Shown: positions 316-14,517 of the stretch, in pieces
Position numbering within the stretch: position 1 is the first letter of the stretch
Layout: each line of letters begins with the position of its first letter
Assembly (NCBI GenBank): GCA_033764315.1
Contig: JANRJA010000179.1
Span: 1-51,185, forward strand
Direction: 5' to 3'
Origin: Oculatellaceae cyanobacterium bins.114
GTDB taxonomy: Bacteria > Cyanobacteriota > Cyanobacteriia > Elainellales > Elainellaceae
Length of the DNA: 51,185 nt
Program-made: the position numbers and the translations under genes
The notes under the pieces: model-generated
Databases searched by the model: none
Seen by the model: the letters and a program-made list of their open reading frames with translations, nothing else
Told to the model about the DNA's origin: nothing

Positions 316-1191
316 ATGGTTTGGAATGAAGAGAATGCGGATAGCGAGATTGCTAATGTAGAAAACGACGAGCAGCTAGTAGAGTTATGGCTGCATGACA
401 AGAGCCAGAATACACAGGATGCTTATCGGCGAGATTTAGCTCAGTTTTTCAGTATCACGGGTCAAAAGGAACTGAGACGGGTCACGCTCAATGACTTGCA
501 AGGTTTTGCTAAATCTCTAGTCGAACGAGGCTATGCCGTCTCCACGCAACAACGACGGCTCAACAGCTTAAAGTCCTTGCTGAGCTTTGGCTATAAACTG
601 GGAGTCTTGCCTGTTAACGTCAGCCAACTCCTGAAACCACCCCGTGCAAAAGATACTCTAGCCGAGCGCATCTTGAGTGAAGGGCAAGTTTTAAACTTAC
701 TCAATGCCACTGCCACCTTGCAAGAACACGCTTTATTACGTCTGCTGTATGCCACGGGTGCTCGGATTAGTGAACTGTGTGACGTGCGGTGGCGAGATTT
801 GCAAGGGGTACAACAGGGGCGAGGACAAGTCACGTTATTCGGCAAAGGAGGCAGAACCAGAGTGGTTGTATTCAGTGCTCAGACGTTGCAAGTGTTAGAG
901 AGCATTAAAGCAGAGGCGACTATCAACGACTTGATATTCCAAAATCGACGGGGTAGCAAGATCAACCGGAGTAGTGTTCGCCGCATGATTCGAGCCGCTT
1001 GCAAACGAGTTGGGATTGGAGAACGAGTTTCTCCCCACTGGTTTCGTCATGCCCATGCTTCTCATGCCTTGGAGCGGGGTGCTCCTGTTAACTTAGTTCA
1101 GATGACGTTAGGACACGCCAGTTTAGCCACAACTGGGCGTTACCTGCATGCTCGACCCCAAGATTCCAGCGGATTACGCCTAGCGGTATGA
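316..1191 (+). CDS. Tyrosine recombinase/integrase (XerC/XerD-like)
   Basis: N-terminal core-binding domain (NTQDAYRRDL); catalytic residues R (GARISE), K (GKGGR), HxxR (HWFRH), H (LGH), Y (RYLH). Confidence 0.95.
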   Translation: MVWNEENADSEIANVENDEQLVELWLHDKSQNTQDAYRRDLAQFFSITGQKELRRVTLNDLQGFAKSLVERGYAVSTQQRRLNSLKSLLSFGYKLGVLPVNVSQLLKPPRAKDTLAERILSEGQVLNLLNATATLQEHALLRLLYATGARISELCDVRWRDLQGVQQGRGQVTLFGKGGRTRVVVFSAQTLQVLESIKAEATINDLIFQNRRGSKINRSSVRRMIRAACKRVGIGERVSPHWFRHAHASHALERGAPVNLVQMTLGHASLATTGRYLHARPQDSSGLRLAV

Positions 1192-1296
1192 GGGTTAGAG
1201 AAGGCTTGTTCAGTGAACCTAACCTTTCCAGTCGCAAGTAACAGCATCAACAGTTATCGGATCGTAACTTGTTAGACGTGACTCATTTCCTTTTTC

Positions 1297-1332
1297 GGTA
1301 GTCCTCTAAAAGTAATGATTTTTGAGTAAGGA
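1297..1332 (+). repeat. 36-bp direct repeat, copy 1 (copy 2 at 12546-12581)
   Basis: GGTAGTCCTCTAAAAGTAATGATTTTTGAGTAAGGA is identical at both positions. Confidence 0.9.
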
Positions 1333-1362
1333 TATGTAGTGCTCCTCGCTGCATATCCTTTT
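1328..1362. terminator. Hairpin between the convergent integrase and MarR-GNAT genes
   Basis: AAGGATATGTAGTG-CTCCT-CGCTGCATATCCTT stem followed by Ts. Confidence 0.6.
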
Positions 1363-1382
1363 GTTTAAGACTACCAGCAAAT

Positions 1383-2333
1383 CTAGCCAACAAGCTTAAG
1401 TTCCATTTGAATATTGCAGCGTTCATAGGGCGAAGGGTGCCCAAGCACTCTCTGAAAACCTAATTTTTGATAGAGATTGATGGCTGGTTCTAAAACCGTA
1501 TTACTTTCTAGATGAATGACTTTTGCTCCTAAATCACGAGCTTTATTGATGGTCGCTTGCCCTAATAACCAGCCAACTCCTTTACCTCTTGCTTTTTCGG
1601 TTACGGCCATCTTTGCTAACTCATAAGTCTTGTGATCTACCTTAATTAAGGCACAAGTGCCAACGATTTCGTTGTTATAACGTGCTAGGTAGATATGACC
1701 TCCTGGTTGTAGGATTGTTATATCTGGATGATCAAGAGATTGATGATCTGAGTCCTCTAACTTAAAATATTTTTCAATCCATTCATAATTCAGTCGTTTA
1801 AAGTCCTGATGAAACTCAGGAGAGTAATCGATAATTTCAATCTGCTGACGTTCACGAGTTTTTTGGATGGCTTTAACTCGATCTAAAAAGCTCTGATTTG
1901 TTAGTAAAAATTCCACTTCTTCAAGTGCTTTCCATAAATCATGCTGTGTCTCTGACAAAAGAGCTTCGACAGCCTGGGCGACATCAATATACTGTTTTTC
2001 GAGCTTTGGAATCAGATGTCTTCCACTATCAGAAAGTCTCACAACATTAATTCTTGCATCTTGGCGATCTTTATCGGTTGTAACCAGTCCTTTTTTGCTC
2101 ATTTCTTTGACAATCTGGCTTACTGATGGATGGGAATGCCCAATCATTTGAGCAATCTCAGTGATAGATGCCTTTTCTTGATGAGACAGCACATAAAAGA
2201 CTGGAAACCACTTAGGGTCTAACGGAACGTCATAAAGAGCATAAACTTTTGCAGCATCTTCTGTCAGTTTGTCGCTCAAGCGGCGCAGGCGACTACCTAA
2301 CGCCAACTTACCCGTATGAGAGTAAAAATCCAT
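1383..2333 (-). CDS. MarR-type HTH / GNAT acetyltransferase fusion
   Basis: N-terminal wHTH (SITEIAQMIGHSHPSVSQIVKEM...DARI); C-terminal GNAT (ELAKMAV...RGKGVG, AINLYQKLGF). Confidence 0.92.
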   Translation of the reverse strand: MDFYSHTGKLALGSRLRRLSDKLTEDAAKVYALYDVPLDPKWFPVFYVLSHQEKASITEIAQMIGHSHPSVSQIVKEMSKKGLVTTDKDRQDARINVVRLSDSGRHLIPKLEKQYIDVAQAVEALLSETQHDLWKALEEVEFLLTNQSFLDRVKAIQKTRERQQIEIIDYSPEFHQDFKRLNYEWIEKYFKLEDSDHQSLDHPDITILQPGGHIYLARYNNEIVGTCALIKVDHKTYELAKMAVTEKARGKGVGWLLGQATINKARDLGAKVIHLESNTVLEPAINLYQKLGFQRVLGHPSPYERCNIQMELKLVG

Positions 2334-2688: not shown

Positions 2689-3684
2689 TTATGGAGGTGT
2701 GAGAAAGGACACCCCAACCCCACCTGTGAAAGGACTAGAAACAGCATTGTCGTCTAAAGTGGCATCACCTTGCCCAGAGAACAAGCGGTATAACCGAAAG
2801 CGATGATAATTGCTCACCAATTGGGGTAGCGGTAACAATCCTCCTCCTTGGTCGCTGTAGAGCTTTTGATGTAATTCGGGGAGTTCATGCCAGGGACAAC
2901 TCATGTTGTGATGATGAGCGTTGTGATAACCAAAGTTGAGAAAGAGTAGGTTGAGCCAGGGATATTTGACTGAAACCAAATTAGAAAACGTGTGTTCCTG
3001 CTCATAAAGGCGATCGCGTTTGGGGAACTCTTGTCCAACAATGGCGTAATCGTAGGTGTGGTGAAATGCGTCGGCAAATCGCATGACATTGACAAACGAA
3101 ATATAAGCTACACAGTAAAGCAATAATGCTTTCCAGGAGATCCAGGCGAGCACTGCAAAAGCAGTCATGCGATAAAGCATCAGAGCGATCGCCCGCCCTT
3201 GTAGCGATCGCTTATCTGCTTCTAGCCAGGGAGCCAAAATGACTCGCCAGCGTAATTCAAATTCAAAAATGGGGAAGTATAACCACTCCAACACTACATA
3301 AATAGAACGCAACCAGGGATTCATCATATTGAAGTATTTGAGAAAATCAAACCCAACAAAGTCAGCATGGTGCAAATGATGGTTGAAGTGATGTTCGACT
3401 AGGGCATCCCAGGTAGCGTAACATCCCCCGTTTAAGTGGGTCATTGCCTGCCCCCAAAAGGCATTTAACTGCCGATCTTTAAAGATATTGCCGTGAATAA
3501 ATTCATGGGTGAAGGTGGCAGACAACAGGAGGGCGTGCACCAGTAAAATAACACCCACAATATTCCATTGCCACGGTTGAACGGTGATCAGTAAAACCCC
3601 TAGAGCATACAAGGTGAAAGTATAGGCGATCGCTCCCAGATTTTTGACCAGGGGTGAGACAAGCAGGGGTGAAACGGTCATCAC
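2689..3684 (-). CDS. Membrane fatty acid desaturase-superfamily di-iron enzyme (paralog 1)
   Basis: His boxes HEFIH, HHFNHHLHH and HNAHH plus hydrophobic helices. Confidence 0.9.
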   Translation of the reverse strand: MMTVSPLLVSPLVKNLGAIAYTFTLYALGVLLITVQPWQWNIVGVILLVHALLLSATFTHEFIHGNIFKDRQLNAFWGQAMTHLNGGCYATWDALVEHHFNHHLHHADFVGFDFLKYFNMMNPWLRSIYVVLEWLYFPIFEFELRWRVILAPWLEADKRSLQGRAIALMLYRMTAFAVLAWISWKALLLYCVAYISFVNVMRFADAFHHTYDYAIVGQEFPKRDRLYEQEHTFSNLVSVKYPWLNLLFLNFGYHNAHHHNMSCPWHELPELHQKLYSDQGGGLLPLPQLVSNYHRFRLYRLFSGQGDATLDDNAVSSPFTGGVGVSFLTPP

Positions 3685-3687
3685 TCA

Positions 3688-4527
3688 CTAAACCTCCATA
3701 CTGGCTAAAGCAGCGGATCGACTGATTTGATATCGGGCAATTTCTTCGCAGGTCGTGAGCCATACTCCTTCGTGCGATCGAATATGGTCGATCAGTTGCT
3801 CCAACAACATCACCCGTGCCGGACGACCAATGATTTCAGGGTGCATCGTCAACACAAATGCGCCCCCATAGCGGTACATCCCATTAAACTCTTCTTTCCA
3901 AACCTGGAGTGCTTTTTCACAGCTTTCAATCACACCGCTGCCAACACGAGGTTCATACAAAAAGGCAAACTGTTCCCAATCATCATTAGTCCAGTGAACA
4001 GGAATCTGAACAAGATCACCTGCCGGGGTCGAGAAAGTGTAGGGGCGATCGTCATCCATTAATGAGGAATCGTAAATCAGTCCATGACGGGCTAAAATCT
4101 CAGCAGAGCAAGGGTTTACTTCCCACAGCGGGGCACGATAACCCACGGGTTTACGTCCTGTGATTTGCTCCAAAATAGTGCAGGTTCGCACCAAGGCCGC
4201 TTCTTCTTGAATTGGGTCGAGGGTAGATACGGGTTCATGTAAATAGCCATGTGCCCCAATTTCATGCCCCTCTTCATAAATTCGTTTGACCAGATCTGGA
4301 TAGAGTTCTGCGGTATAGCCTGGGACAAAGAAGGTTGCTTTTACCGCTTTGGCTCGAAGCATATCTAAGATTCGGGGGACGCCCACTCTGGGGCCATATC
4401 GTGCCCACGACATGACCGAGAGCCGATCTTTATTTCGAGGATCAGCCTGAAGCATTCCAGACTCGCCATCAACATCAAAGCTGAGTACAGCCGCACAACG
4501 AATATCCGCAGCCCAAGCAAACGGCAT
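3688..4527 (-). CDS. Polysaccharide deacetylase family protein (CE4, PuuE/HpPgdA-like amidohydrolase)
   Basis: SFDVD, HGYLHE, GYRAP, YDSS and LTMHP motifs; no signal peptide; 3 bp upstream of the desaturase. Confidence 0.9.
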   Translation of the reverse strand: MPFAWAADIRCAAVLSFDVDGESGMLQADPRNKDRLSVMSWARYGPRVGVPRILDMLRAKAVKATFFVPGYTAELYPDLVKRIYEEGHEIGAHGYLHEPVSTLDPIQEEAALVRTCTILEQITGRKPVGYRAPLWEVNPCSAEILARHGLIYDSSLMDDDRPYTFSTPAGDLVQIPVHWTNDDWEQFAFLYEPRVGSGVIESCEKALQVWKEEFNGMYRYGGAFVLTMHPEIIGRPARVMLLEQLIDHIRSHEGVWLTTCEEIARYQISRSAALASMEV

Positions 4528-4680
4528 AACTAACTCTCCTAATAGTGTTCAAATGGTGCTCAAAACTGGTGTAATACGGCAGTTAATGAACCGAGTAATC
4601 CGAAAAAGCCATGAATTGTAGTAGCGTGTTCAGTTAAAAAGGGGGGTGGAGTGCCAATGAAACCCAACACAAAATTTGTG

Positions 4681-4881
4681 TATATCAACTGTCAAAGACA
4701 GTGAATACGAGAGGGTATGGGGACTTCGCTCCCAACCAACTTTCGCCCTGATCGCTCAAGCCGAAGGGAGATGAAACCTTTACACCCTGTCCTAACCAAC
4801 TCTTGAGTTGGACGTTGCTGAGCCAATGTATGAACGTCTGTGAATCATACCTGTATTCAGCAATGCTCTTGAGTTGCGATA
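4681..4881. repeat. Dispersed repeat element (related copy at 27529-27634) hosting a nested MITE
   Basis: Shares CACCCTGT(C/T)CTAACC..TCTT(G/C)AGTTGC and ends resembling TA..CAACTG / (C/G)AGTTGC with the second copy. Confidence 0.55.
4811..4867. mobile_element. MITE-like element, copy 1
   Basis: Imperfect TIR GACGTTGCTGA...TCAGCAATGCT flanked by direct repeat CTTGAGTTG (4802-4810 and 4868-4876); related to 20798-20898. Confidence 0.7.
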
Positions 4882-4930
4882 GGTTGGGTTAGCCACGCTA
4901 CGCTGATCAGCGCAAATCGACACTGTTGCA

Positions 4931-4972
4931 AGGCTATTCAAGGCTGAAAAAATATTTCGTTACTTGTGCTAC
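4931..4972 (-). promoter_or_regulatory. NtcA-type promoter for the deacetylase-desaturase unit
   Basis: Minus strand GTAGCACAAGTAAC (GTA-N8-AAC), 22 nt spacer, then -10 TAGCCT. Confidence 0.55.
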
Positions 4973-5458
4973 AAACTAACCAACTCTTGAGCTATCTGCT
5001 AAATCCTCAACTTAGGGCTAAAACACTTGTTGTTTTAGGAATGGGATGCTGGTTCCATCTGAATTTATAGGATGAAGGCGTTTTGTGCAAAAGAATGTAT
5101 CTGCAATTATGGGACAAGGCATTCAGACAATAGTTTCTGGAGTCATTTCAGAATTAATCGATCGCCTATCTCATTTCTATTTTTTTAAGATCTAACTCTC
5201 TTACCCGGTTATCCCTTTCTTTAAAAATCGTGTGGCTTCATCATTCAATCTTAAATAGTAGAGCTAAACCCCTTGTCAGAGAAGCTTTACAGATAAAACC
5301 TGATTGACTAATTCAGTCAAATGTAAAGTTTCTTGAGTTAATCATTTCTGAACTAAAACATCATTTCAATCATGATTTATGAACTGGATTCAGAATTTAC
5401 TTAGAAAGCGCAAAGAGAATAACTTAGAATTGCGAATTTAGCAAAAAAATTGAAATAA

Positions 5459-5501
5459 TGTAGTTGCAATTACAATTTGTTCGTTTTTCCCGTTCTATGC
5501 T
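5459..5501 (+). promoter_or_regulatory. Canonical NtcA-activated promoter for the SDR-ABC operon
   Basis: TGTAGTTGCAATTACA (GTA-N8-TAC at 5460-5473), 22 nt spacer, then -10 TATGCT (5496-5501). Confidence 0.8.
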
Positions 5502-5547
5502 CATCCCTAAGACACACCATCTAAGACAAAACATCTGAGGCAAGACC

Positions 5548-6309
5548 GTGAGATTAAAGGACAGGGTTAGTCTCATTACTGGGGCTGGATCGGGAATTGG
5601 ACAAGCAACTGCGTTGAGGTTTGCGAGTGAAGGAGCGATCGTTGTAATTGCCGATCGCAACTTAGAAGCCGCTGAGAAAACTCAACACTTGATTGAACAA
5701 TCGGGCGGAACAGGTCACGCGATCGCCCTAGATGTGACTCAAGAACAACAGGTTGCAGAGGCGATCTCTACCACTGTTCAACAATTTGGACGGTTAGATG
5801 TTCTACACAACAATGCTGGAATATCTATCCTCAAACCCATTACCGAAACGACTGAAGCTGACTGGGATCAGTTGTTTAATGTCAATCTCAAAGGTGTATT
5901 CTTTGGCTGCAAGCATGCCATTCCAATCATGGTGCAACAAGGAGGCGGCGTGATTATCAACACAGCTTCTGAGTTGGCGATCGTAGGTCAGCCACTTTAT
6001 ACTGCCTACTGCGCCACCAAAGGAGGTGTATTAGCGTTTACTCGCGCCTTGTCAGTGGAATGGGCCGCCAAAGGAATTCGGATTAATGCAGTTTGCCCAG
6101 GGCCTGTTCAAACGCCGATGTTACAAGCTGAATTTGACTTAGCAAGCAATCCAACGGCTGAAGCGATCGCCACAATTCAGTCGATTCCAGTGGGGCGGTT
6201 GGGGGCACCCGACGACATTGCGCGTGTAGCTCTGTTTCTTGCGAGTGATGATGCTGTATTTGTGCATGGGGCAGCGATTGTAGCCGATGGTGGACGAACC
6301 ACTGTTTAG
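5548..6309 (+). CDS. Short-chain dehydrogenase/reductase (classical SDR)
   Basis: TGAGSGIG, NNAG, YCATK (YxxxK) and DGG motifs. Confidence 0.95.
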   Translation: MRLKDRVSLITGAGSGIGQATALRFASEGAIVVIADRNLEAAEKTQHLIEQSGGTGHAIALDVTQEQQVAEAISTTVQQFGRLDVLHNNAGISILKPITETTEADWDQLFNVNLKGVFFGCKHAIPIMVQQGGGVIINTASELAIVGQPLYTAYCATKGGVLAFTRALSVEWAAKGIRINAVCPGPVQTPMLQAEFDLASNPTAEAIATIQSIPVGRLGAPDDIARVALFLASDDAVFVHGAAIVADGGRTTV

Positions 6310-6352
6310 TAGAAGTATTTAGTAGAACTGCTTAGTAGAACTGTTTAGTAGA
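6301..6352 (+). repeat. 13-bp tandem repeat x4
   Basis: ACTGTTTAGTAGA / AGTATTTAGTAGA / ACTGCTTAGTAGA / ACTGTTTAGTAGA, starting over the SDR stop codon. Confidence 0.9.
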
Positions 6353-6487
6353 ACTCGATATAGGTTGAGCGATCAGTGTTGAGTGCTGCATTAAGCATGT
6401 AGCTTTATTTTCGTAATGCACTACTGTAATGCACTACTTGTTATTCATCCAGTCTTTTCAGTTTATTGTTGGAGGACTATCAATTCT

Positions 6488-7528
6488 ATGTCTTATACTT
6501 TTTCTCGTCGTTCGTTTATACGATCATCTGCATTAACAACGGCAACCACTCTCCTCACGATCGGTTGTAGTCGGCAGACCCACTCTCCACCCTTATCAGA
6601 AGCGTCAGATCAGCCGATTCGTTTAGGATTTAACCTGTGGCCCGGAGCAATTCCCTGGCAGATTGCTGAAGATCAGGACTTGTTTAAAGCAGCCGGAGTC
6701 AATGCTGAAATCACCTGGTTTCAGGTTCTTGGAGATCAGATTAATGCCTTTAATGCTGGCAAAATTGACATTGCCAATCTGACATTAAACGATCTGTTTA
6801 TGAGCAACTCCAACGGAGTGCTTTGTAAGGTAATTTTGATGCCAGATGTTTCTGCGGGTGCAGATGCGATCGTGGCGTCCAATTCCGTTACCTCCGTCCA
6901 AGATTTTGTTGGAAAACAAGCAGGGGTTGAAATTGCCACGATTGGGCATCTGCTATTTCTCCAAGCATTGGCTAAAAATGGCATCGATCCGCAGTCAGTG
7001 CCAATTGTTAACATGGCAGCCGATGCGGCTATTAGTGCCATCATTGCTGGCAAGTTAGATGTGGCTTATTCCTACGATCCCTTTATTACTCAGCTGCTGC
7101 ACAGTGGCAAAGGCAACGTTGTTTTCTCAAGCAAAGATGTTCCTGGATTAATAGCTGACACCGTTGTTGCCCATGACTCGCTCCTCAATAGCCGCACTGT
7201 CGAGGTGCAAAAGCTAGTGGATGTGTGGCATCAAGTTTTAGACTTCCGTAATCAAAATCAAAAGGATGCCTATGCGATTGAGGCAAAACGAGCAGGTGTA
7301 TCAGTAGAGGATTACGCTGCGTTGCAAAAAGGATTGGAATGGCTAACTCCGCAGCAAACTCTAGAGACCTTTCAACCCGGAAATACAACGCGATCGCTTC
7401 TTTATGCAGGCAAAGTCGTTGCCGATTTCATGTTAGAGCAACAGTTGCTACAAACTTCTCCTCCAGATACTGCAACGCTGATTAACGATCGCTTTATCAA
7501 AGATTACGTCTTGCGTCTCCCTGCTTAA
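6488..7528 (+). CDS. ABC transporter substrate-binding lipoprotein 1 (NitT/TauT, SsuA/NMT1-like)
   Basis: Start at 6488 after GGAGG; SRRSFI twin-Arg plus lipobox IGC; WPG..PW, GADAIV and YDPF motifs. Confidence 0.9.
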   Translation: MSYTFSRRSFIRSSALTTATTLLTIGCSRQTHSPPLSEASDQPIRLGFNLWPGAIPWQIAEDQDLFKAAGVNAEITWFQVLGDQINAFNAGKIDIANLTLNDLFMSNSNGVLCKVILMPDVSAGADAIVASNSVTSVQDFVGKQAGVEIATIGHLLFLQALAKNGIDPQSVPIVNMAADAAISAIIAGKLDVAYSYDPFITQLLHSGKGNVVFSSKDVPGLIADTVVAHDSLLNSRTVEVQKLVDVWHQVLDFRNQNQKDAYAIEAKRAGVSVEDYAALQKGLEWLTPQQTLETFQPGNTTRSLLYAGKVVADFMLEQQLLQTSPPDTATLINDRFIKDYVLRLPA

Positions 7529-7556
7529 TTGTCATCCCTCTCAAAAGGACAAATCT

Positions 7557-8603
7557 ATGACTGATCGGGTTCCCCTCTCGGTTCTTCTCTCTCGTCGATC
7601 GTTTTTGCGGTCTGCGGCTTTATCGACAGCAGCAGCGATCGCCACCGTCAGTTGCAGCGGAAAATCTGCCAGTACCTCTGGAACTTCCCAAAGCCGACCT
7701 TTACAGGTTGGCATGAATTTATGGGCAGGCTTTATGCCCTGGAAAGTTGCACAGGAAAAAGATTTTTTTACTGCTAATGGGGTCAATGTAGAAGTCACCT
7801 GGTTTCCTGTGTTATCGGATCAACTCACCGCATTTAATGCTGGGAAACTGGATGTTGCCGGAATGACCCTATCCGATATGTTGACGGGTTTAGCCGGTGG
7901 ATTGCAAACAAAGATCATCGCCATCACAGATGTCTCACTGGGTGCAGACGCCATTTTAGTCTCACCCGCGATCAACTCCATTCAAGATCTGATCGGGAAG
8001 CGAGCCTCGATCGAGCTTGGTACAGTCGGGCACATGCTCTTTTTGAAAGCCTTAGAGCAAGGGGGTGTGGCAGCAGATCAGGTTGAAGTCGTTAATCAAT
8101 CTGCCGATGCGGCGACGGCTGCATTGATCGCCGGAAAAACAGACTGTGTTTATTCCTATGAGCCGTTTGTCAGCCAAGCAGTACAGTCTGGTCGAGGGAA
8201 AGTGATTTTTTCGAGCAAAGATATCCCAGGCATTATTCCCGATCCCCTCGTGATTCATGATCGGGTGTTAACCGAGCAACCAGAAGCGGTGCAGGCATTA
8301 ATGACGGTTTGGTATAAAACCTTAGAATATCGAAAAGCTCATCTAGATGAGGTGTTATCGATTGAAGCAAAACAGGCAGGGGTCTCTCTAGAAGACTACA
8401 CCACTATCCTCAAGGGATTTTCATGGTTGACTCCCGAAGAGTGCCTCAAAACGTTTGAGCCAGGAGACAGTATGGAATCAGTGATTTATTCCTCGCAGGT
8501 CATTGGCGACTTCATGGTGGGACAAGACCTGATTACCAGTAAACCTGATTCGATTGAGCCGTATATCGATCGCCGCTTTGTTGAACAGTACTTAAAGGGA
8601 TAG
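7557..8603 (+). CDS. ABC transporter substrate-binding lipoprotein 2 (paralog)
   Basis: SRRSFL twin-Arg plus VSC lipobox; WAGFMPW, GADAIL and YEPF motifs. Confidence 0.9.
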   Translation: MTDRVPLSVLLSRRSFLRSAALSTAAAIATVSCSGKSASTSGTSQSRPLQVGMNLWAGFMPWKVAQEKDFFTANGVNVEVTWFPVLSDQLTAFNAGKLDVAGMTLSDMLTGLAGGLQTKIIAITDVSLGADAILVSPAINSIQDLIGKRASIELGTVGHMLFLKALEQGGVAADQVEVVNQSADAATAALIAGKTDCVYSYEPFVSQAVQSGRGKVIFSSKDIPGIIPDPLVIHDRVLTEQPEAVQALMTVWYKTLEYRKAHLDEVLSIEAKQAGVSLEDYTTILKGFSWLTPEECLKTFEPGDSMESVIYSSQVIGDFMVGQDLITSKPDSIEPYIDRRFVEQYLKG

Positions 8604-8614
8604 AAGGCTCTAGT

Positions 8615-9394
8615 ATGAACCGTTCTGAACTGGTGATTCGCAATCTCTACAAAAGCTTTCCTGGCAAACGAGGGGCGATCGTTGCGCTCAAAAATATCAA
8701 TCTCACGGTTTATCGCAATGAGTTTGTTTGTGTGGTGGGGGCATCGGGCTGTGGCAAGTCTACGTTGTTGAATTTGATTGCCGGATTAGAAGAACCAACC
8801 TCTGGTGAAATCTTGCTAGAGGGAAATCCAATTGATGGCCCTGGAGCTAACCGAGGTATGGTGTTTCAAAATTACACCCTTTATCCCTGGCTAACAGTGG
8901 CTCAAAATGTGGAATTTGGCATGAAGATGCAAAAAATCCCATTGGCGGAGCGTCAGCAACGGGTGGCTTATTATCTGGAAACGGTTGGCTTAACCCGATT
9001 TGCCGATGCGTTGCCAAGGGCACTGTCTGGGGGAATGAAACAACGAGTGGCGATCGCTCGTGCACTTGCCAATGAACCCGATATTTTGTTGATGGATGAA
9101 CCCTTTGGGGCATTGGATGCTCAAACTAAAGAGGTGTTGCAAGAGTTTATGTTGCGGCTCTGGCGACAAACTCACAAAACCATTTTTATGGTGACGCATG
9201 ATGTCGAAGAAGCGGTCTTTTTATCCCAACGCATTTATGTTTTGTCGTCTCGTCCTGGTGAAATTAAAGCCGAAGTACAGTTAGATTTTGATGATCATCG
9301 CGATCTATCGATCAAAGGAACTGAGCTATTTCAACGTAAACGGCAAGAGGTTTTGCAGTTAATTCGAGACGAAATTTTAGCAGCGGCTGGATAG
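8615..9394 (+). CDS. ABC transporter ATP-binding protein (NitT/TauT)
   Basis: Walker A GASGCGKS, signature LSGGMKQR, Walker B LLMDEPFGALD, VTHD. Confidence 0.96.
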   Translation: MNRSELVIRNLYKSFPGKRGAIVALKNINLTVYRNEFVCVVGASGCGKSTLLNLIAGLEEPTSGEILLEGNPIDGPGANRGMVFQNYTLYPWLTVAQNVEFGMKMQKIPLAERQQRVAYYLETVGLTRFADALPRALSGGMKQRVAIARALANEPDILLMDEPFGALDAQTKEVLQEFMLRLWRQTHKTIFMVTHDVEEAVFLSQRIYVLSSRPGEIKAEVQLDFDDHRDLSIKGTELFQRKRQEVLQLIRDEILAAAG

Positions 9395-9420
9395 TGTAAG
9401 TCCATTCATGGAAAATTTTT

Positions 9421-10287
9421 ATGAAAACTCAAATGCCGCCATCAATCTCGCTTGTGGAACCTGAACAACGACCCACCAAACCATCTCGTCAGCGACGATC
9501 CGTATTTTGGCGAATTCGGAACGACATCCCCAAACGACTCTATTACACCCTGATGGCACTTTCGCTCTTGGTGCCCGTGTTGGGCTGGGCCGTGTTGACC
9601 TACGGAGGTTTTGTAGAACCGTTGTTTTTGCCAACTCCAGGCGGGGTGATTCAACAAGCGATCGCCCTATTACAAAGTGGTGAATTGGTTCACCATGCTC
9701 TGACCAGTATTTCTAGAGTTGCCTGGGGCTTCCTATTTTCAGCATTGATCAGCGTTCCATTGGGGCTGTTGATTGGCACTTTCAAAAGTATGGAAGGACT
9801 ATTTGAGCCGATCGTTGCCCTGTTGCGATATATGCCTGCCGCTGCCTTTATTCCGTTGATTATTTTGTGGGTAGGCTTGGGAGAACCTTCAAAAGTGGTG
9901 ATTATCTTTTTGGGTAGTTTCTTCTACAACACCTTGATGATTGCCGATGCGGTTAAATTCATTCCAGATGACTTTCTTAAAGCTGCCTACACGATGGGAG
10001 TGAGCCGTCGAGATGTGTTTTTGCATGTCATTTTTCCGGCAACACTACCAAATATTATCGATACACTTCGCATTAACGTTGCTGGAGCTTGGAACTTTGT
10101 AGTCGTCGCTGAATTGGTTGGAGCCAACTCAGGATTAGGCAACATGATTATGATGGCTCAACGCTTTTTGAAAACAGATGAGATTTTTGTTGGCATTATT
10201 CTGATCGGCTTGATCGGGCTAGGCATTGACTTTATCTTTAAACTCATCTTTAAGCTGACCGTTCCTTGGGCGGTCAACAAAGGATAG
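9421..10287 (+). CDS. ABC transporter permease (NitT/TauT)
   Basis: Multiple TM helices; EAA-like loop KAAYTMG; VVAELVGANSGLG. Confidence 0.95.
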   Translation: MKTQMPPSISLVEPEQRPTKPSRQRRSVFWRIRNDIPKRLYYTLMALSLLVPVLGWAVLTYGGFVEPLFLPTPGGVIQQAIALLQSGELVHHALTSISRVAWGFLFSALISVPLGLLIGTFKSMEGLFEPIVALLRYMPAAAFIPLIILWVGLGEPSKVVIIFLGSFFYNTLMIADAVKFIPDDFLKAAYTMGVSRRDVFLHVIFPATLPNIIDTLRINVAGAWNFVVVAELVGANSGLGNMIMMAQRFLKTDEIFVGIILIGLIGLGIDFIFKLIFKLTVPWAVNKG

Positions 10288-10297
10288 ACCGCAACTC

Positions 10298-11164
10298 ATG
10301 GACTTATTGCTATTACGCACCGTATGGTCGGGTTCCAGCCATCTAGATGAGTTAGTAGAACAAACTGTTGCGGCGGGCTTCAACGGCATTGAAGGCCCCA
10401 TTCCCAAAGATGACTCGCAACGGCAGGTCTTGCGCCAATTCTTGAGCGATCGCCAACTTGCCTTTATTGCTGAAGCGACCACAGGGACTGATTTTGATAG
10501 TGAACGAGATTGGTGGATACCCAAGAGCGATCGCACCCTTGACGATCATCTCAACGACCTGAAGTGGACGGTCGATCATGCGGCTGAGATGGGTGCACTC
10601 TTTGTATCAACGATGTGTGGCTACGATGCCTGGTCATGGCAGCAAAATGTTGACTTTTTTGGGCGTGCCTTAGAACTAGAACACGCATCTGGTATGACTA
10701 TTAGCTTTGAAACCCATCGCAGTCGATCGCTGTTTAACCCCTGGATCACTCGCGATCTGCTGCTGCACTTTCCTAAGATGAAGTTAACCTGTGACTTTAG
10801 CCACTGGTGTGTCGTGTGTGAGCGGTTGATTGATTCTGAGTGGTCAATTTTAGAACTGTGCGCTCAGCGAGCCATGCACATTCACTGTCGTGTTGGCTAT
10901 GCTCAGCATGCCCAGGTAACTGATCCGCGTGCTCCAGAATATGCAACGGCTCTAGCGGCTCACGAGCGTTGGTGGAACCTGATTTGGCAGGCACAGGCGC
11001 AACGTGGTATGGCTCAAGTAACCATGACTCCAGAATTTTTGTGGGACGGCTATATGCAAACGTTACCCTTTACCAAACAGCCTATTGCAGATGTGTGGGA
11101 AATTACTTGCTGGGTAGCAGAACGGCAGCGACAGCAGTTTGGTCACTGTTTTTCTGGGGTTTAA
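10298..11164 (+). CDS. Sugar phosphate isomerase/epimerase-like TIM-barrel protein (AP endonuclease 2 fold)
   Basis: GFNGIE, FETHR, TCDFSHW, HIHCRVG and TPEF metal-ligand motifs. Confidence 0.8.
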   Translation: MDLLLLRTVWSGSSHLDELVEQTVAAGFNGIEGPIPKDDSQRQVLRQFLSDRQLAFIAEATTGTDFDSERDWWIPKSDRTLDDHLNDLKWTVDHAAEMGALFVSTMCGYDAWSWQQNVDFFGRALELEHASGMTISFETHRSRSLFNPWITRDLLLHFPKMKLTCDFSHWCVVCERLIDSEWSILELCAQRAMHIHCRVGYAQHAQVTDPRAPEYATALAAHERWWNLIWQAQAQRGMAQVTMTPEFLWDGYMQTLPFTKQPIADVWEITCWVAERQRQQFGHCFSGV

Positions 11165-11451
11165 TGAGTCGGTTCTTGCCAAGTGTTAAGCGATCGCGGA
11201 AACTGTTTCTCTGGAAACAGTTTCTCTATCGTCTTTTTGCGCAATGTCGATCAGAGGCAGAAGACCAATAGCTACGAAGTCTGGGTAGCAAAGTACTTCT
11301 GCCATTAGCCCTGAAATTTATTTCGGGACAAGTCAGCAATGAAGCAATCAACCTTGTCTCCCAGGACATGAGTTTCCTGGCTCAAAGCCAACATCCTCTC
11401 AAGAAAACTAGACTTGTTTTTGTAGTCACGATTTTAACGGCTAAAAACTTC

Positions 11452-12507
11452 TCAGACATTACCTGAAACATTGAGCTTTAGCCAATCAAGCGGTTCTCTG
11501 AGGATCAGAAAAGAAACCCCCACTCCCCCAGCAAACTGATCCAAATTCAAGCCATCGTTGGTATCAATCACCGTTCCTCCGCCTCGAAACAAACGATGAA
11601 TGCGAAACTGATGATAGTTTTTTATCAAACGATCGAGCGTTATATGCTGGCGATCGCCCGGTAAATAGAGTTCAGCATCCAGTTGAGGCAACAAATACCA
11701 GGGACAGTGAATAACGCGATGATGGGCATTGTGATAGCCAAAATTGAGAAACAGCAGGTTTAACCAACGCCAGCGACCCAATATCACATTGGAATAGGTA
11801 TTTGCTTCTTCATACTCCAAACTATATTGAGGTAGGGATTGCCCCAATTGAAATACCGCGTAGGTATGTTGAAAGCAATCCATGAATCGCAAGATGTTAA
11901 TGAAACAGATGTAAGCCAAGAAATATAGCAAGAGCGATCGCCAGGAATAGTATCCTAAAGCAACAAAAAGACTTCCTCTGACCAAAAGCAATCCTAACGT
12001 TCGCTGACGCTCACTCCGACGGGCTTGACCTAAAAAAGGAGCTACGATGCAAAGCCAGCGCAAGATCAAATTAACAGCTGGAAAATACAGCCACTCCAAA
12101 ACAACAATTAACTGCATCAATGGCTTTGGCAGCGATCGAAGAAAACCAGTAATTGAGAATGCAGAAAAGTCAGCTCGGTTTTTATGATGGGCTAAATGAT
12201 TGCGAGCTAAATCTTGAAACCGACAATAGCATGAGCCTATCAGAAACAGCATAATATTGCCAAATAAAACGTTCATATAAGGCTGCCGAAAAACAATGCC
12301 ATGAGCCAACTCATGTACAAAATAAGCTGCCCAAATTAACGTATGAATCAGCAGAAAAACACCTAGAACATTAATTGTTAAAGATTTAGAGCTAATACAG
12401 ATCAGGGCAAAGACATAGCCAATGAGAACGTAGGACAACGCTAACCTATTGATTCCATAGGAGCGATTACTAATCCTGGACATTAGATCGGAAGAAACAG
12501 GAGACAT
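11452..12507 (-). CDS. Membrane fatty acid desaturase-superfamily di-iron enzyme (paralog 2)
   Basis: HELAH, HLAHH and HNAHH boxes; shares LEWLYFP, NLLFLNFGYHNAHH and GGVGVSFL with paralog 1. Confidence 0.9.
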   Translation of the reverse strand: MSPVSSDLMSRISNRSYGINRLALSYVLIGYVFALICISSKSLTINVLGVFLLIHTLIWAAYFVHELAHGIVFRQPYMNVLFGNIMLFLIGSCYCRFQDLARNHLAHHKNRADFSAFSITGFLRSLPKPLMQLIVVLEWLYFPAVNLILRWLCIVAPFLGQARRSERQRTLGLLLVRGSLFVALGYYSWRSLLLYFLAYICFINILRFMDCFQHTYAVFQLGQSLPQYSLEYEEANTYSNVILGRWRWLNLLFLNFGYHNAHHRVIHCPWYLLPQLDAELYLPGDRQHITLDRLIKNYHQFRIHRLFRGGGTVIDTNDGLNLDQFAGGVGVSFLILREPLDWLKLNVSGNV

Positions 12508-12545
12508 TCAATACTCCAGCTATGAAAGTAATCTCTTCAAAAATT

Positions 12546-12586
12546 GGTAGTCCTCTAAAAGTAATGATTTTTGAGTAAGGACTACC
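12546..12586 (+). repeat. Imperfect palindromic repeat, copy 2
   Basis: GGTAGTCCT...AGGACTACC; first 36 bp identical to 1297-1332. Confidence 0.9.
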
Positions 12587-12607
12587 CAAGAATTCAACAT
12601 AAAAGCC

Positions 12608-12651
12608 AAGCTAAATGAATTCCCGAATATCAAACTGTTACTTTTAATACA
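12608..12651 (-). promoter_or_regulatory. NtcA-type promoter for desaturase paralog 2
   Basis: Minus strand TGTATTAAAAGTAACA (GTA-N8-AAC, 12637-12650), 23 nt spacer, then -10 TAGCTT. Confidence 0.55.
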
Positions 12652-12727
12652 AAAGTAAACAAGTAAAAAATGCCTGCTAAAATCTGAAAACACAGGCTAA
12701 AAACTTACTATTTCCTGGAGAGGTTTA

Positions 12728-13219
12728 GTGCAGCCAGAATCTACCCCAAATCCAATTTCAACGCTGGATGAGATTGATCAAGACATCATTAACTTGCTCC
12801 GCATTGATGGACGCATGTCATTCACTGAAATTGGCAAGCGATTAAATATGCCAGAAGCAACGGCACGTTATCGAGTCCAGCGACTCCTGCAATCTGGAAT
12901 TGTTCAAGTTTTGGCATGGCCCAACCTCGAAAAACTAGGCACTCCTCATGTAGTGATTGTTTCTTTAGTCGTTGAAAACAGTCATATCGATTCTGTGGCA
13001 AAAGCTTTAGAACAAATGGTAGAAGTACGTTTTGTTGCCATTACCACAGGTCACTATGACATCATTGCCGATGTTTTCTTTGGCAATTATGCCGAAGTCA
13101 CACTCTTCTTTGAAAAGATGAAACAGATTCCTGGAATTATTCGGCAGGACTCACACTTCATTTTAAAGTTATTGAAAGCTGAGTACAAGTACACCTTCTC
13201 TCGAGGAGAAGACAAGTGA
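12728..13219 (+). CDS. Lrp/AsnC family transcriptional regulator
   Basis: LDEIDQDIINLLRIDGRMSFTEIG HTH; C-terminal TGHYD ligand-binding domain. Confidence 0.95.
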   Translation: MQPESTPNPISTLDEIDQDIINLLRIDGRMSFTEIGKRLNMPEATARYRVQRLLQSGIVQVLAWPNLEKLGTPHVVIVSLVVENSHIDSVAKALEQMVEVRFVAITTGHYDIIADVFFGNYAEVTLFFEKMKQIPGIIRQDSHFILKLLKAEYKYTFSRGEDK

Positions 13220-13891: not shown

Positions 13892-14517
13892 TCAACCACC
13901 ACAGCGTCTCACTTGGGCAGCACTGAGCACAATTTGATCAATAGCTTGTGTCATCACCGCCCCTGATTGTCTGGGTTGGTTGACTACAATGCTAAAGGCG
14001 ATCGCTCCACAAGAGGAATTCTCTAAATTGCCAGACAACGCTCTGACCCCTTGCAGGGTGCCAGTTTTCGCGTGAATCCTTCCTTGGACTGGCGTATTCC
14101 GAAAGTGATTTCGCCAAGTTCCATTCACCCTTGCCACGGCCAAAGAACGATAAAATAATCCCGGGTATACATGCCTTTGAGCAATGCCACAAAGGTAGAC
14201 GGTTTGGCCCGATTGTGGCGCGATCGCCCTGACCCGTCTACTTGAGCATAACTATCAGGATTAACCCTCAACACAGTCAACACTTGCCTAACAACTGTTT
14301 GTCTCCCAATGCGTCTCAAAAAATTATTAGCAGAGGCATTATTGCTATCTCGATTGACAACTGTGAGCCATGCTTTTAAAGAATTTAACCATTGAGGCGT
14401 GCGATCGCTTATCACCTGCAACGCAGCAACTGTAGTCAGAAGTTTGATGTTTGAGGCTGGACTAAAAGAAACATCTGAGTTGTGGTGATAGAGCACGGTT
14501 GACTCTGAAACAGGTTC
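13892..14517 (-). pseudogene. dacB: D-alanyl-D-alanine carboxypeptidase (peptidase S13) pseudogene
   Basis: ASNIK (SxxK), SNN and DGSG in one frame; AKTGT in another; frameshift near 14152; N-terminus and signal peptide missing. Confidence 0.85.

What the first reader, a model, noticed from the sequence alone, without database searches (positions are those of the whole stretch)
2689..13219. Candidate undescribed nitrogen-scavenging pathway built around two desaturase-like di-iron enzymes
Seen: two desaturase-superfamily paralogs bracket a cytoplasmic CE4 deacetylase, an SDR, a NitT/TauT ABC importer with two binding proteins and a metal TIM-barrel protein, with an Lrp/AsnC regulator at the end. 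All three enzyme/transporter units have NtcA-type promoters. Known: NtcA activates nitrogen-assimilation genes; PuuE-like CE4 proteins hydrolyse small amides; Lrp/AsnC proteins sense amino acids or amines. Inference: the cluster imports and oxidatively degrades an unknown small N-containing compound, and the desaturase-like enzymes act on it rather than on membrane lipid. I know of no characterised pathway with this gene set.
Basis: partly seen in the sequence, partly recalled or inferred. Interest (0 to 1): 0.88.

Follow-up and report, generated by a model that had tools for sequence, protein, structure and literature searches.

The report
Desaturase-like enzymes for nitrogen scavenging
A cyanobacterium carries a ten-gene cluster that probably imports a small nitrogen-rich molecule when nitrogen is short and uses two enzymes that look like fatty-acid desaturases to strip a methyl group from its nitrogen, a job not yet described for that enzyme fold.

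Summary
The ten genes are as described. The same set recurs with other flanks in G001 and, with an inserted nucleoside-type ABC and two amidohydrolases, in G032. All three NtcA-type promoters have cross-genome support; one is perfect, two are GTA-N8-AAC variants. The desaturase-like proteins keep nine metal-type histidines but form a separate family. Relatives sit directly under guanidine-I riboswitches with creatininase in L036 and L115, and under one in L050. The TIM barrel lies beside a different Fe oxygenase (2OG, PhyH, Rieske) in 6 of 7 other loci examined, twice at guanidine-catabolic operons. Best reading: an NtcA/Lrp-controlled pathway that imports an N-methylated amidine- or guanidine-type compound and demethylates it oxidatively, the membrane di-iron enzymes standing where 2OG or Rieske demethylases stand elsewhere. 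The substrate is not identified. The window lacks a riboswitch, creatininase and the MgdL-like gene, its binding proteins are distant from the riboswitch-linked ones, and des2 may belong to a second, nucleobase-type module. Seven full-text searches found no description. No activity or expression was tested.

The parts
2689..3684 (-). des1: membrane di-iron (desaturase-fold) enzyme; proposed N-alkyl hydroxylase
   Evidence: PF00487 E 7e-25; H60,H64,H99,H102,H103,H209,H254,H257 invariant and H258 nearly so in 29 sequences; model pLDDT 87, best folds two desaturase-sized chains of the Ycf2/Orf2971-FtsHi complex entries and AlkB, all E > 0.001
3688..4527 (-). single-domain CE4 amidohydrolase, 3 nt upstream of des1; proposed deformylase or ring/ureide hydrolase
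   Evidence: PF01522 (4); closest structure 3RXZ E 4e-73, PuuE 3CL6 E 3e-28 (19); below the PuuE cut-off, 100 vs 425 bits; the protein starts almost directly with the catalytic motif, no leader seen
4931..4972 (-). NtcA-type promoter of CE4-des1 (GTA-N8-AAC, -10 TAGCCT at 22 nt)
   Evidence: conserved block with G001 (76)
5460..5501 (+). perfect NtcA-type promoter of the SDR-ABC-TIM operon
   Evidence: -10 and 5 of 6 box bases kept in G001 (76)
5548..6309 (+). classical SDR; proposed to oxidise the hydroxylated intermediate
   Evidence: PF00106/PF13561 (4); best NCBIfam PRK06138 298 vs cut-off 312 (5); relatives 64-72% identical beside des in L002, L018, L020, L021, L068, L069 (16)
6488..7528 (+). 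NitT/TauT-type binding protein 1
   Evidence: NMT1 (4); below TIGR01728 cut-off
7557..8603 (+). NitT/TauT-type binding protein 2
   Evidence: NMT1 (4); passes the broad TIGR01728 SsuA-family cut-off, 169.6 vs 163.5 (5); nearest solved structure TauA at only E 1e-12 (20)
8615..9394 (+). ABC ATPase, TauB/NrtD type
9421..10287 (+). ABC permease, TauC type
10298..11164 (+). metal TIM-barrel (xylose-isomerase-like) protein that pairs with Fe oxygenases; proposed to act on the hydroxylated product
   Evidence: PF01261 (4); E138, D166, H169, H194, R198, E246 invariant in 23 sequences; model pLDDT 93 matches ketose 3-epimerases at 12-16% identity; neighbours
11452..12507 (-). des2: second desaturase-fold enzyme
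   Evidence: PF00487 E 3e-25 (4); 41% to des1 (10); 40% to the riboswitch-linked member in L115 (113)
12608..12650 (-). NtcA-type promoter of des2 (GTA-N8-AAC, -10 at 22-23 nt)
   Evidence: box ends invariant in 7 of 7 regions
12728..13219 (+). Lrp/AsnC regulator, divergent from des2
   Evidence: relatives in 10 of 80 des loci; a 37% relative flanks TIM-Rieske-ABC in L103 (141)

Best explanation
A nitrogen-scavenging unit switched on by NtcA (and tuned by the Lrp when the substrate is present). The ABC system imports one or two small N-methylated amidine- or guanidine-type compounds (candidates: methylguanidine or creatine-related compounds, methylated nucleobases or their ring-opened products). 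The desaturase-fold enzymes use O2 and host ferredoxin to hydroxylate the N-methyl (or other N-alkyl) carbon rather than a lipid. Such hemiaminals can be long-lived (shown for N-(hydroxymethyl)guanidine in PMC12508155), so further enzymes finish the job: most likely the SDR oxidises N-CH2OH to N-formyl and the CE4 removes formate, and/or the metal TIM barrel cleaves or rearranges the hydroxylated product. The freed base goes to general routes such as the guanidine-riboswitch ureohydrolase operon elsewhere in this genome (L087). Shown: genes, motifs, conserved promoters, conserved neighbourhoods. Inferred: every reaction, the substrate class, the electron donor and the order of steps.
For: Cluster kept whole with different flanks in G001 (72) and G032. 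Three conserved NtcA-type promoters. Family members directly behind guanidine-I riboswitches: L036 (SBP-des-SBP-creatininase; creatininase passes TIGR04448, 368 vs 235; GlnT and CgdAB-type genes nearby), L050, and L115, a high-GC locus reached independently through an HRI1-like query (SBP-des-creatininase-MBL-HRI1-like). des2 relatives at 62-66% sit with an HRI1-like protein in L025-L028 and with creatininase in L025-L027; that family has an invariant D38-x-R40 (92), the spacing of the catalytic D49/R51 of the hemiaminal lyase MgdL, and in L112 it shares a locus with a 364-aa 2OG dioxygenase and a urea/guanidine carboxylase. TIM relatives adjoin a 2OG dioxygenase (L082, with three guanidine riboswitches and the carboxylase pathway; L083), a PhyH dioxygenase (L084) or a Rieske oxygenase (L102, L103, L104; the last at the end of an operon whose ureohydrolase is 83% identical to the riboswitch-controlled one of this genome): 6 of 7 loci examined. 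Of 8 TIM-positive genomes among 101, 4 had no des match, and the 3 of those examined have a Rieske oxygenase beside TIM. CE4, SDR and des share a locus in L002, L018, L020, L021, L069 (16).
Against: No guanidine riboswitch in the window, in L099 or L100, and in only 2 of 41 des loci scanned; none in the des2-closest loci. The window has no creatininase, MBL, isochorismatase or HRI1-like gene, and PF16815 was not found in this 91%-complete genome. The window's binding proteins are only 27-32% identical to those in the riboswitch loci. Seven close des2 loci have a nucleoside-type (Bmp) binding protein next to des2 instead. One clade of the family lies in terpenoid biosynthesis clusters (L040-L042, L049, L077), so the family is not confined to N catabolism. 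TIM was found in only 1 of 80 des loci and stands alone in L101. The identity of the HRI1-like family with MgdL rests on a motif and context; the MgdL sequence was not seen. The TIM fold's solved relatives are sugar epimerases. No reductase or ferredoxin gene is in the cluster.
Confidence: 0.5

Rival explanations
1. Nitrogen scavenging, but the oxygenases attack a carbon other than an N-methyl group (hydroxylation next to nitrogen in a longer chain, as in arginine C5 hydroxylation, or desaturation of a ring), with the TIM barrel acting as an epimerase or isomerase on a polyhydroxylated amine or nucleoside fragment.
For: TIM model matches ketose epimerases and keeps their metal-type residues; L083 has aldolase II and glyoxylate reductase beside TIM and the dioxygenase, L084 has a sugar ABC; Bmp-type ABC and deaminase-like amidohydrolases accompany des2.
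Against: Creatininase, GlnT and GbcA-like Rieske neighbours point to N-methyl chemistry; no kinase, aldolase or sugar gene in the window.
Confidence: 0.22
2. Two separate N-scavenging modules lie side by side: CE4-des1 with the SDR-ABC-TIM operon, and Lrp-des2, a methylated-nucleobase module that has lost its own nucleoside transporter here. They share regulation, not a substrate. Compatible with the demethylase chemistry above but not with a single linear pathway.
For: des2 is followed by a Bmp ABC in L001/L100, L003, L004, L006, L007, L011, L022 (16); des1 relatives occur with CE4, Lrp and ABC without a second des (L069, 16); three promoters, two binding proteins.
Against: CE4, SDR and Lrp relatives accompany both des1- and des2-type genes; the ten-gene order is kept in G001 and G032.
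Confidence: 0.15
3. Sulfur scavenging (sulfonate or methyl-sulfur compound), as the SsuA-family label suggests.
For: SBP2 passes TIGR01728 (5); nearest solved structures are TauA and SsuA.
Against: Matches are weak (E 1e-12 or worse); conserved NtcA-type promoters; neighbours across genomes are N-catabolic; no SsuD/TauD-type gene among the ten.
Confidence: 0.05
4. The desaturases modify lipids or a secondary metabolite and are only co-regulated with the transporter.
For: Pfam label; a clade in terpenoid clusters; L081 member beside halogenase and HpaB; four paralogs in this genome.
Against: No NCBIfam desaturase model passes; patchy distribution, 33 of 101 relatives; direct riboswitch control in relatives; operonic with amidohydrolases and importers.
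Confidence: 0.08

Closest known systems
MgdH/MgdL methylguanidine demethylation (Vreelandella boliviensis; PMC12508155, main text parts 1-4 of 7 read)
   Same: Oxygenase plus a follow-up enzyme for a stable hemiaminal, linked to ABC import and guanidine catabolism; relatives of this cluster's genes occur in such riboswitch-controlled operons.
   Different: MgdH is a soluble 2OG/Fe dioxygenase, MgdL a beta-barrel. The window has membrane di-iron enzymes, a TIM barrel, an SDR and a CE4, under NtcA-type and Lrp control without a riboswitch.
Rhizopine oxygenase MocD/MocE/MocF with MocC (recalled, no call)
   Same: Desaturase-fold oxygenase proposed to demethylate an imported small molecule, with a xylose-isomerase-like TIM barrel, a dehydrogenase and an ABC binding protein nearby.
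   Different: Proposed O-demethylation of a methyl-inosamine; has its own ferredoxin and reductase; sugar-type transporter. Sequence relation to MocD was not tested.
Guanidine hydrolase GdmH operon of cyanobacteria (passage read in PMC12186494)
   Same: NitT/TauT-type import of a guanidine compound for nitrogen; a similar operon lies on contig C251 of this genome.
   Different: Hydrolytic, riboswitch-controlled, no oxygenase; the window's binding proteins are 35-37% identical to that locus's.
Acyl-lipid desaturases, CrtW/CrtR, AlkB (membrane di-iron superfamily; roles recalled)
   Same: Fold and histidine boxes.
   Different: No curated model passed; family-specific RFxDxFxHT, LEWxY and C-terminal GVSFL motifs; operonic with importers and amidohydrolases.
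Rieske N-demethylases of the GbcA type
   Same: Proposed chemistry; GbcA-like Rieske genes take the place of des beside TIM, ABC and Lrp in L103.
   Different: Unrelated fold and cofactor.

Membership tests
Membrane di-iron (desaturase/hydroxylase) superfamily | Histidine boxes HxxxH, HxxHH, HxxHH plus an extra His | tested here: met
Membrane di-iron (desaturase/hydroxylase) superfamily | Helical membrane fold like desaturases/AlkB | tested here: inconclusive
   Best Foldseek rows TM 0.58-0.60 and AlkB 0.48, probability 1.0 but E > 0.001 (138); Atlas structure match to PF00487 clusters
Characterised acyl-lipid desaturases or carotenoid ketolases | Curated family model passed | tested here: not met
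   Only CrtW at 19-29 bits vs cut-off 350 (5)
Characterised acyl-lipid desaturases or carotenoid ketolases | Activity on acyl lipid or carotenoid | not testable with these tools
   needs lipidomics
MgdH/MgdL system | 2OG/Fe dioxygenase | tested here: not met
   none among the ten genes
MgdH/MgdL system | Beta-barrel lyase with D-x-R | tested here: not met
   absent from the window; PF16815 not found in G000 (94); a candidate lies beside des relatives elsewhere
MgdH/MgdL system | Guanidine riboswitch and carboxylase operon | tested here: not met
   no Rfam hit in the window
PuuE allantoinase | TIGR03212 cut-off | tested here: not met
   100 vs 425 bits; keeps HGYLH metal motif; that PuuE lacks it is recalled
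NtcA class II promoters | GTA-N8-TAC (or variant) about 22 nt before TAN3T, conserved | tested here: met
   consensus recalled
NtcA class II promoters | NtcA binding and N-dependent transcription | not testable with these tools
   no reads were laid; no binding data
Sulfonate/taurine ABC (Ssu/Tau) | Equivalog cut-off and a desulfonating enzyme | tested here: not met
   TauA models 66-81 vs 304; only the broad subfamily passed by SBP2 (5)
Rhizopine oxygenase MocD | Sequence clade and MocE/MocF partners | not tested
   no ferredoxin or reductase among the ten genes; no direct comparison with MocD run

The most novel reading that the evidence does not exclude
This widespread desaturase-fold family (396 representatives at E <= 0.001; cyanobacteria and proteobacteria) is a class of membrane di-iron N-demethylases that replaces 2OG and Rieske demethylases, and the TIM-barrel family is an undescribed metal-dependent enzyme that finishes demethylation after any of four oxygenase chemistries. 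Together they would reveal a pool of methylated guanidines or nucleobases used as nitrogen by cyanobacteria.
Probability: 0.35. Interest if true: 0.85.

Novelty: new variant of a known kind. Interest (0 to 1): 0.7.

Why it matters
It would give a new reaction (N-demethylation of a small soluble molecule) to the membrane desaturase fold and correct the 'fatty acid desaturase' label on a large family. It also gives testable handles (two binding proteins, an Lrp, riboswitch-linked sister operons) on an open question stated in PMC12508155: which methylated guanidine-type compounds occur in nature and feed microbes.

Tried and rejected
TIM barrel as MgdL: rejected, MgdL is described as a beta-barrel with D49/R51. 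NtcA boxes by window statistics alone: at chance level, so conservation was used. The one-mismatch site nearest CE4 (4618-4631) has no -10 (9) and is not conserved. Solved-structure sequence searches gave nothing for TIM, des1 or the HRI1-like protein. Plasmid search with the HRI1-like protein: no match. NCBIfam has no model for TIM or the HRI1-like protein. The L104 oxygenase is not a 2OG enzyme but a Rieske. The 2OG dioxygenase after CE4 in L022 is only 28% identical to that of L112, so it was not used as guanidine evidence. Earlier findings of this scan: none. Full-text searches returned no paper; others returned papers whose listings or passages do not treat this family; one found the MgdH/MgdL paper. 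The paper's alignment supplement could not be read, which leaves the HRI1-like = MgdL link open. No tree was built, so clades are judged by identity only. L105 and plasmid hits H3, H6-H11 were not examined for neighbours; 39 of the 80 des loci were not scanned for riboswitches. No expression data were sought.
Full report
Anatomy. They form three units: CE4-des1 on the minus strand (3-nt gap), SDR-SBP1-SBP2-ATPase-permease-TIM on the plus strand, and des2 divergent from Lrp. No curated model of known function is passed by des1, des2, CE4 or TIM; SBP2 passes only the broad SsuA-family model. Both desaturase-like proteins keep the histidine boxes, which are invariant or nearly so in 29 diverse members, with family-specific RFxDxFxHT and LEWxY motifs. 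The des1 model (pLDDT 87) finds desaturase-sized chains and AlkB as best folds, none at E <= 0.001. The TIM model (pLDDT 93) matches ketose 3-epimerases at 12-16% identity and keeps E138, D166, H169, H194, R198 and E246; that these form the metal site is recalled. CE4 is closest to 3RXZ and only distantly to PuuE.

Promoters. A perfect NtcA-type box with a -10 at 22 nt precedes the SDR operon; the genome has 54 such box-plus--10 arrangements. The other two are GTA-N8-AAC variants that chance alone could give (14% of shuffles for des2), but the des2 box ends are invariant in 7 of 7 upstream regions and the CE4/des1 box at 4959-4972 lies in the best-conserved block of an otherwise diverged spacer shared with G001. 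The NtcA consensus is recalled; binding was not tested.

Conservation. G001, same genus, has the ten genes in the same order with other flanks, which fixes the unit's limits. G032 has them with a nucleoside-type ABC and two amidohydrolases inserted between TIM and des2 and a DUF1989 gene next to Lrp (L001 and L100 give the same proteins and count once; the CE4, SDR and binding-protein genes of L100 were assigned by size and position). Among the best 80 of 520 des loci (many cut short by contig ends), neighbours were: NitT-type permease 20, EamA 16, isochorismatase family 14, CE4 13, SDR cluster 13, Lrp 10, metallo-beta-lactamase 10, Bmp binding protein 7, creatininase 5, HRI1-like 4, TIM 1. 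The family was found in 33 of 101 related genomes, TIM in 8 of 101. It has four paralogs here and members named from Trinickia, Paraburkholderia and a gammaproteobacterium.

What the neighbours say. Guanidine-I riboswitches lie directly before SBP-des-SBP-creatininase in L036 and before des-SBP in L050: 2 of 41 des loci scanned. A search with an HRI1-like neighbour, not with des, returned 16 metagenome loci; of 15 HRI1-like loci scanned, 3 carry the riboswitch (L110 and L111 look like one organism), and L115 again reads riboswitch-SBP-des-creatininase-MBL-HRI1-like. The HRI1-like family has an invariant D-x-R near its N-terminus. In PMC12508155 (parts 1-4 of 7 read) methylguanidine is hydroxylated by a 2OG dioxygenase and the stable hemiaminal is cleaved by MgdL, a beta-barrel with catalytic D49 and R51. 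The match is suggestive, supported by L112 where the HRI1-like gene shares a locus with a 2OG dioxygenase and a carboxylase, but MgdL's sequence was not seen because the supplement could not be read.

The TIM barrel gives a second line. Outside this cluster it adjoins an iron oxygenase in 6 of 7 loci examined: 2OG dioxygenase in L082 (43% to that of L112; three guanidine riboswitches and the carboxylase pathway) and L083, PhyH in L084, Rieske in L102, L103 and L104; it stands alone in L101. L103 reads Lrp, TIM, Rieske, NitT ABC, the window's layout with another oxygenase. L104 places Rieske and TIM at the end of an operon whose ureohydrolase is 83% identical to the riboswitch-controlled one in this genome, though L104 itself gave no riboswitch hit. 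Four of the 8 TIM genomes had no des match; the three examined have Rieske beside TIM. These are few, partly related genomes, so this is a pattern, not a statistic.

Mechanism. The simplest reading is that des occupies the oxygenase slot of an N-dealkylation route. I propose import, N-methyl hydroxylation, then either SDR oxidation to N-formyl and CE4 deformylation (CE4, SDR and des share 5 of 80 loci plus G001 and G032) or cleavage by TIM. All reactions are inferred. The substrate is probably not methylguanidine itself: the window has no riboswitch, creatininase or HRI1-like gene, and its binding proteins are 27-32% identical to the riboswitch-linked ones. des2's frequent pairing with a nucleoside-type ABC and deaminase-like amidohydrolases points to methylated nucleobases, and may mean two modules. 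A clade in terpenoid clusters shows the family can serve biosynthesis, still on a small molecule.

Novelty. Searches gave no paper; others gave none on this family by listing or passages (90, 91); the library lacks most subscription journals. Earlier findings of this scan: none. The logic is known from MgdH/MgdL and, as recalled, MocD; a desaturase-fold N-demethylase and this TIM family's role were not found described. Verdict: real, conserved, undescribed cluster; new variant of a known kind; interest 0.7.

Noticed in passing
window 316-2333: Tyrosine integrase and a MarR-GNAT fusion flank the cluster; G001 has other flanks.
   Followed up: partly
window 4690-4990 and 6309-6360: The CE4-SDR spacer has about 300 bp that G001 lacks, with three copies of a short CTCTTGAG element; short TAGTAGAAC repeats follow the SDR.
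   Followed up: no
window 13892-14496: Two short ORFs that look like pieces of a D-Ala-D-Ala carboxypeptidase (motifs recalled), followed by an XRE-type gene and a 1864-aa hybrid kinase.
   Followed up: no
L087:3548-9347 (G000:C251): Guanidine-I riboswitch, ureohydrolase, HypA, HypB and NitT ABC: a GdmH-type guanidine operon in this genome.
   Followed up: partly
L086:8347-14423 (G000:C96): Another des paralog with class II aldolase, a DUF1989/Tdm-like protein, GntR, 2-hydroxyacid dehydrogenase and a GbcA-like Rieske.
   Followed up: partly
L088:5247-11128 (G000:C49): Type III glutamate-ammonia ligase, GbcA-like Rieske and NitT ABC parts; a likely methylamine-type module.
   Followed up: no
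L085:8926-10621 (G000:C214): An NsiR1 Rfam match about 600 bp upstream of the fourth des paralog.
   Followed up: no
L040, L041, L042, L049, L077: des-family gene inside terpenoid clusters with DXS, IspG, IspH, GGPP synthase, Pyr4-type cyclase and a Rieske protein.
   Followed up: partly
L031, L033, L035, L047, L060: des-EamA pair followed by 6S RNA.
   Followed up: no
L081:9875-16186: des member in a run with an ectoine-synthase-labelled gene, GNAT, halogenase and HpaB on a Gloeothece plasmid.
   Followed up: no
L109-L124, P0241: Bacterial HRI1-like proteins recur with isochorismatase, MBL, arginase-family genes and guanidine riboswitches; a candidate MgdL-type lyase family and a lead for the function of PF16815.
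   Followed up: partly
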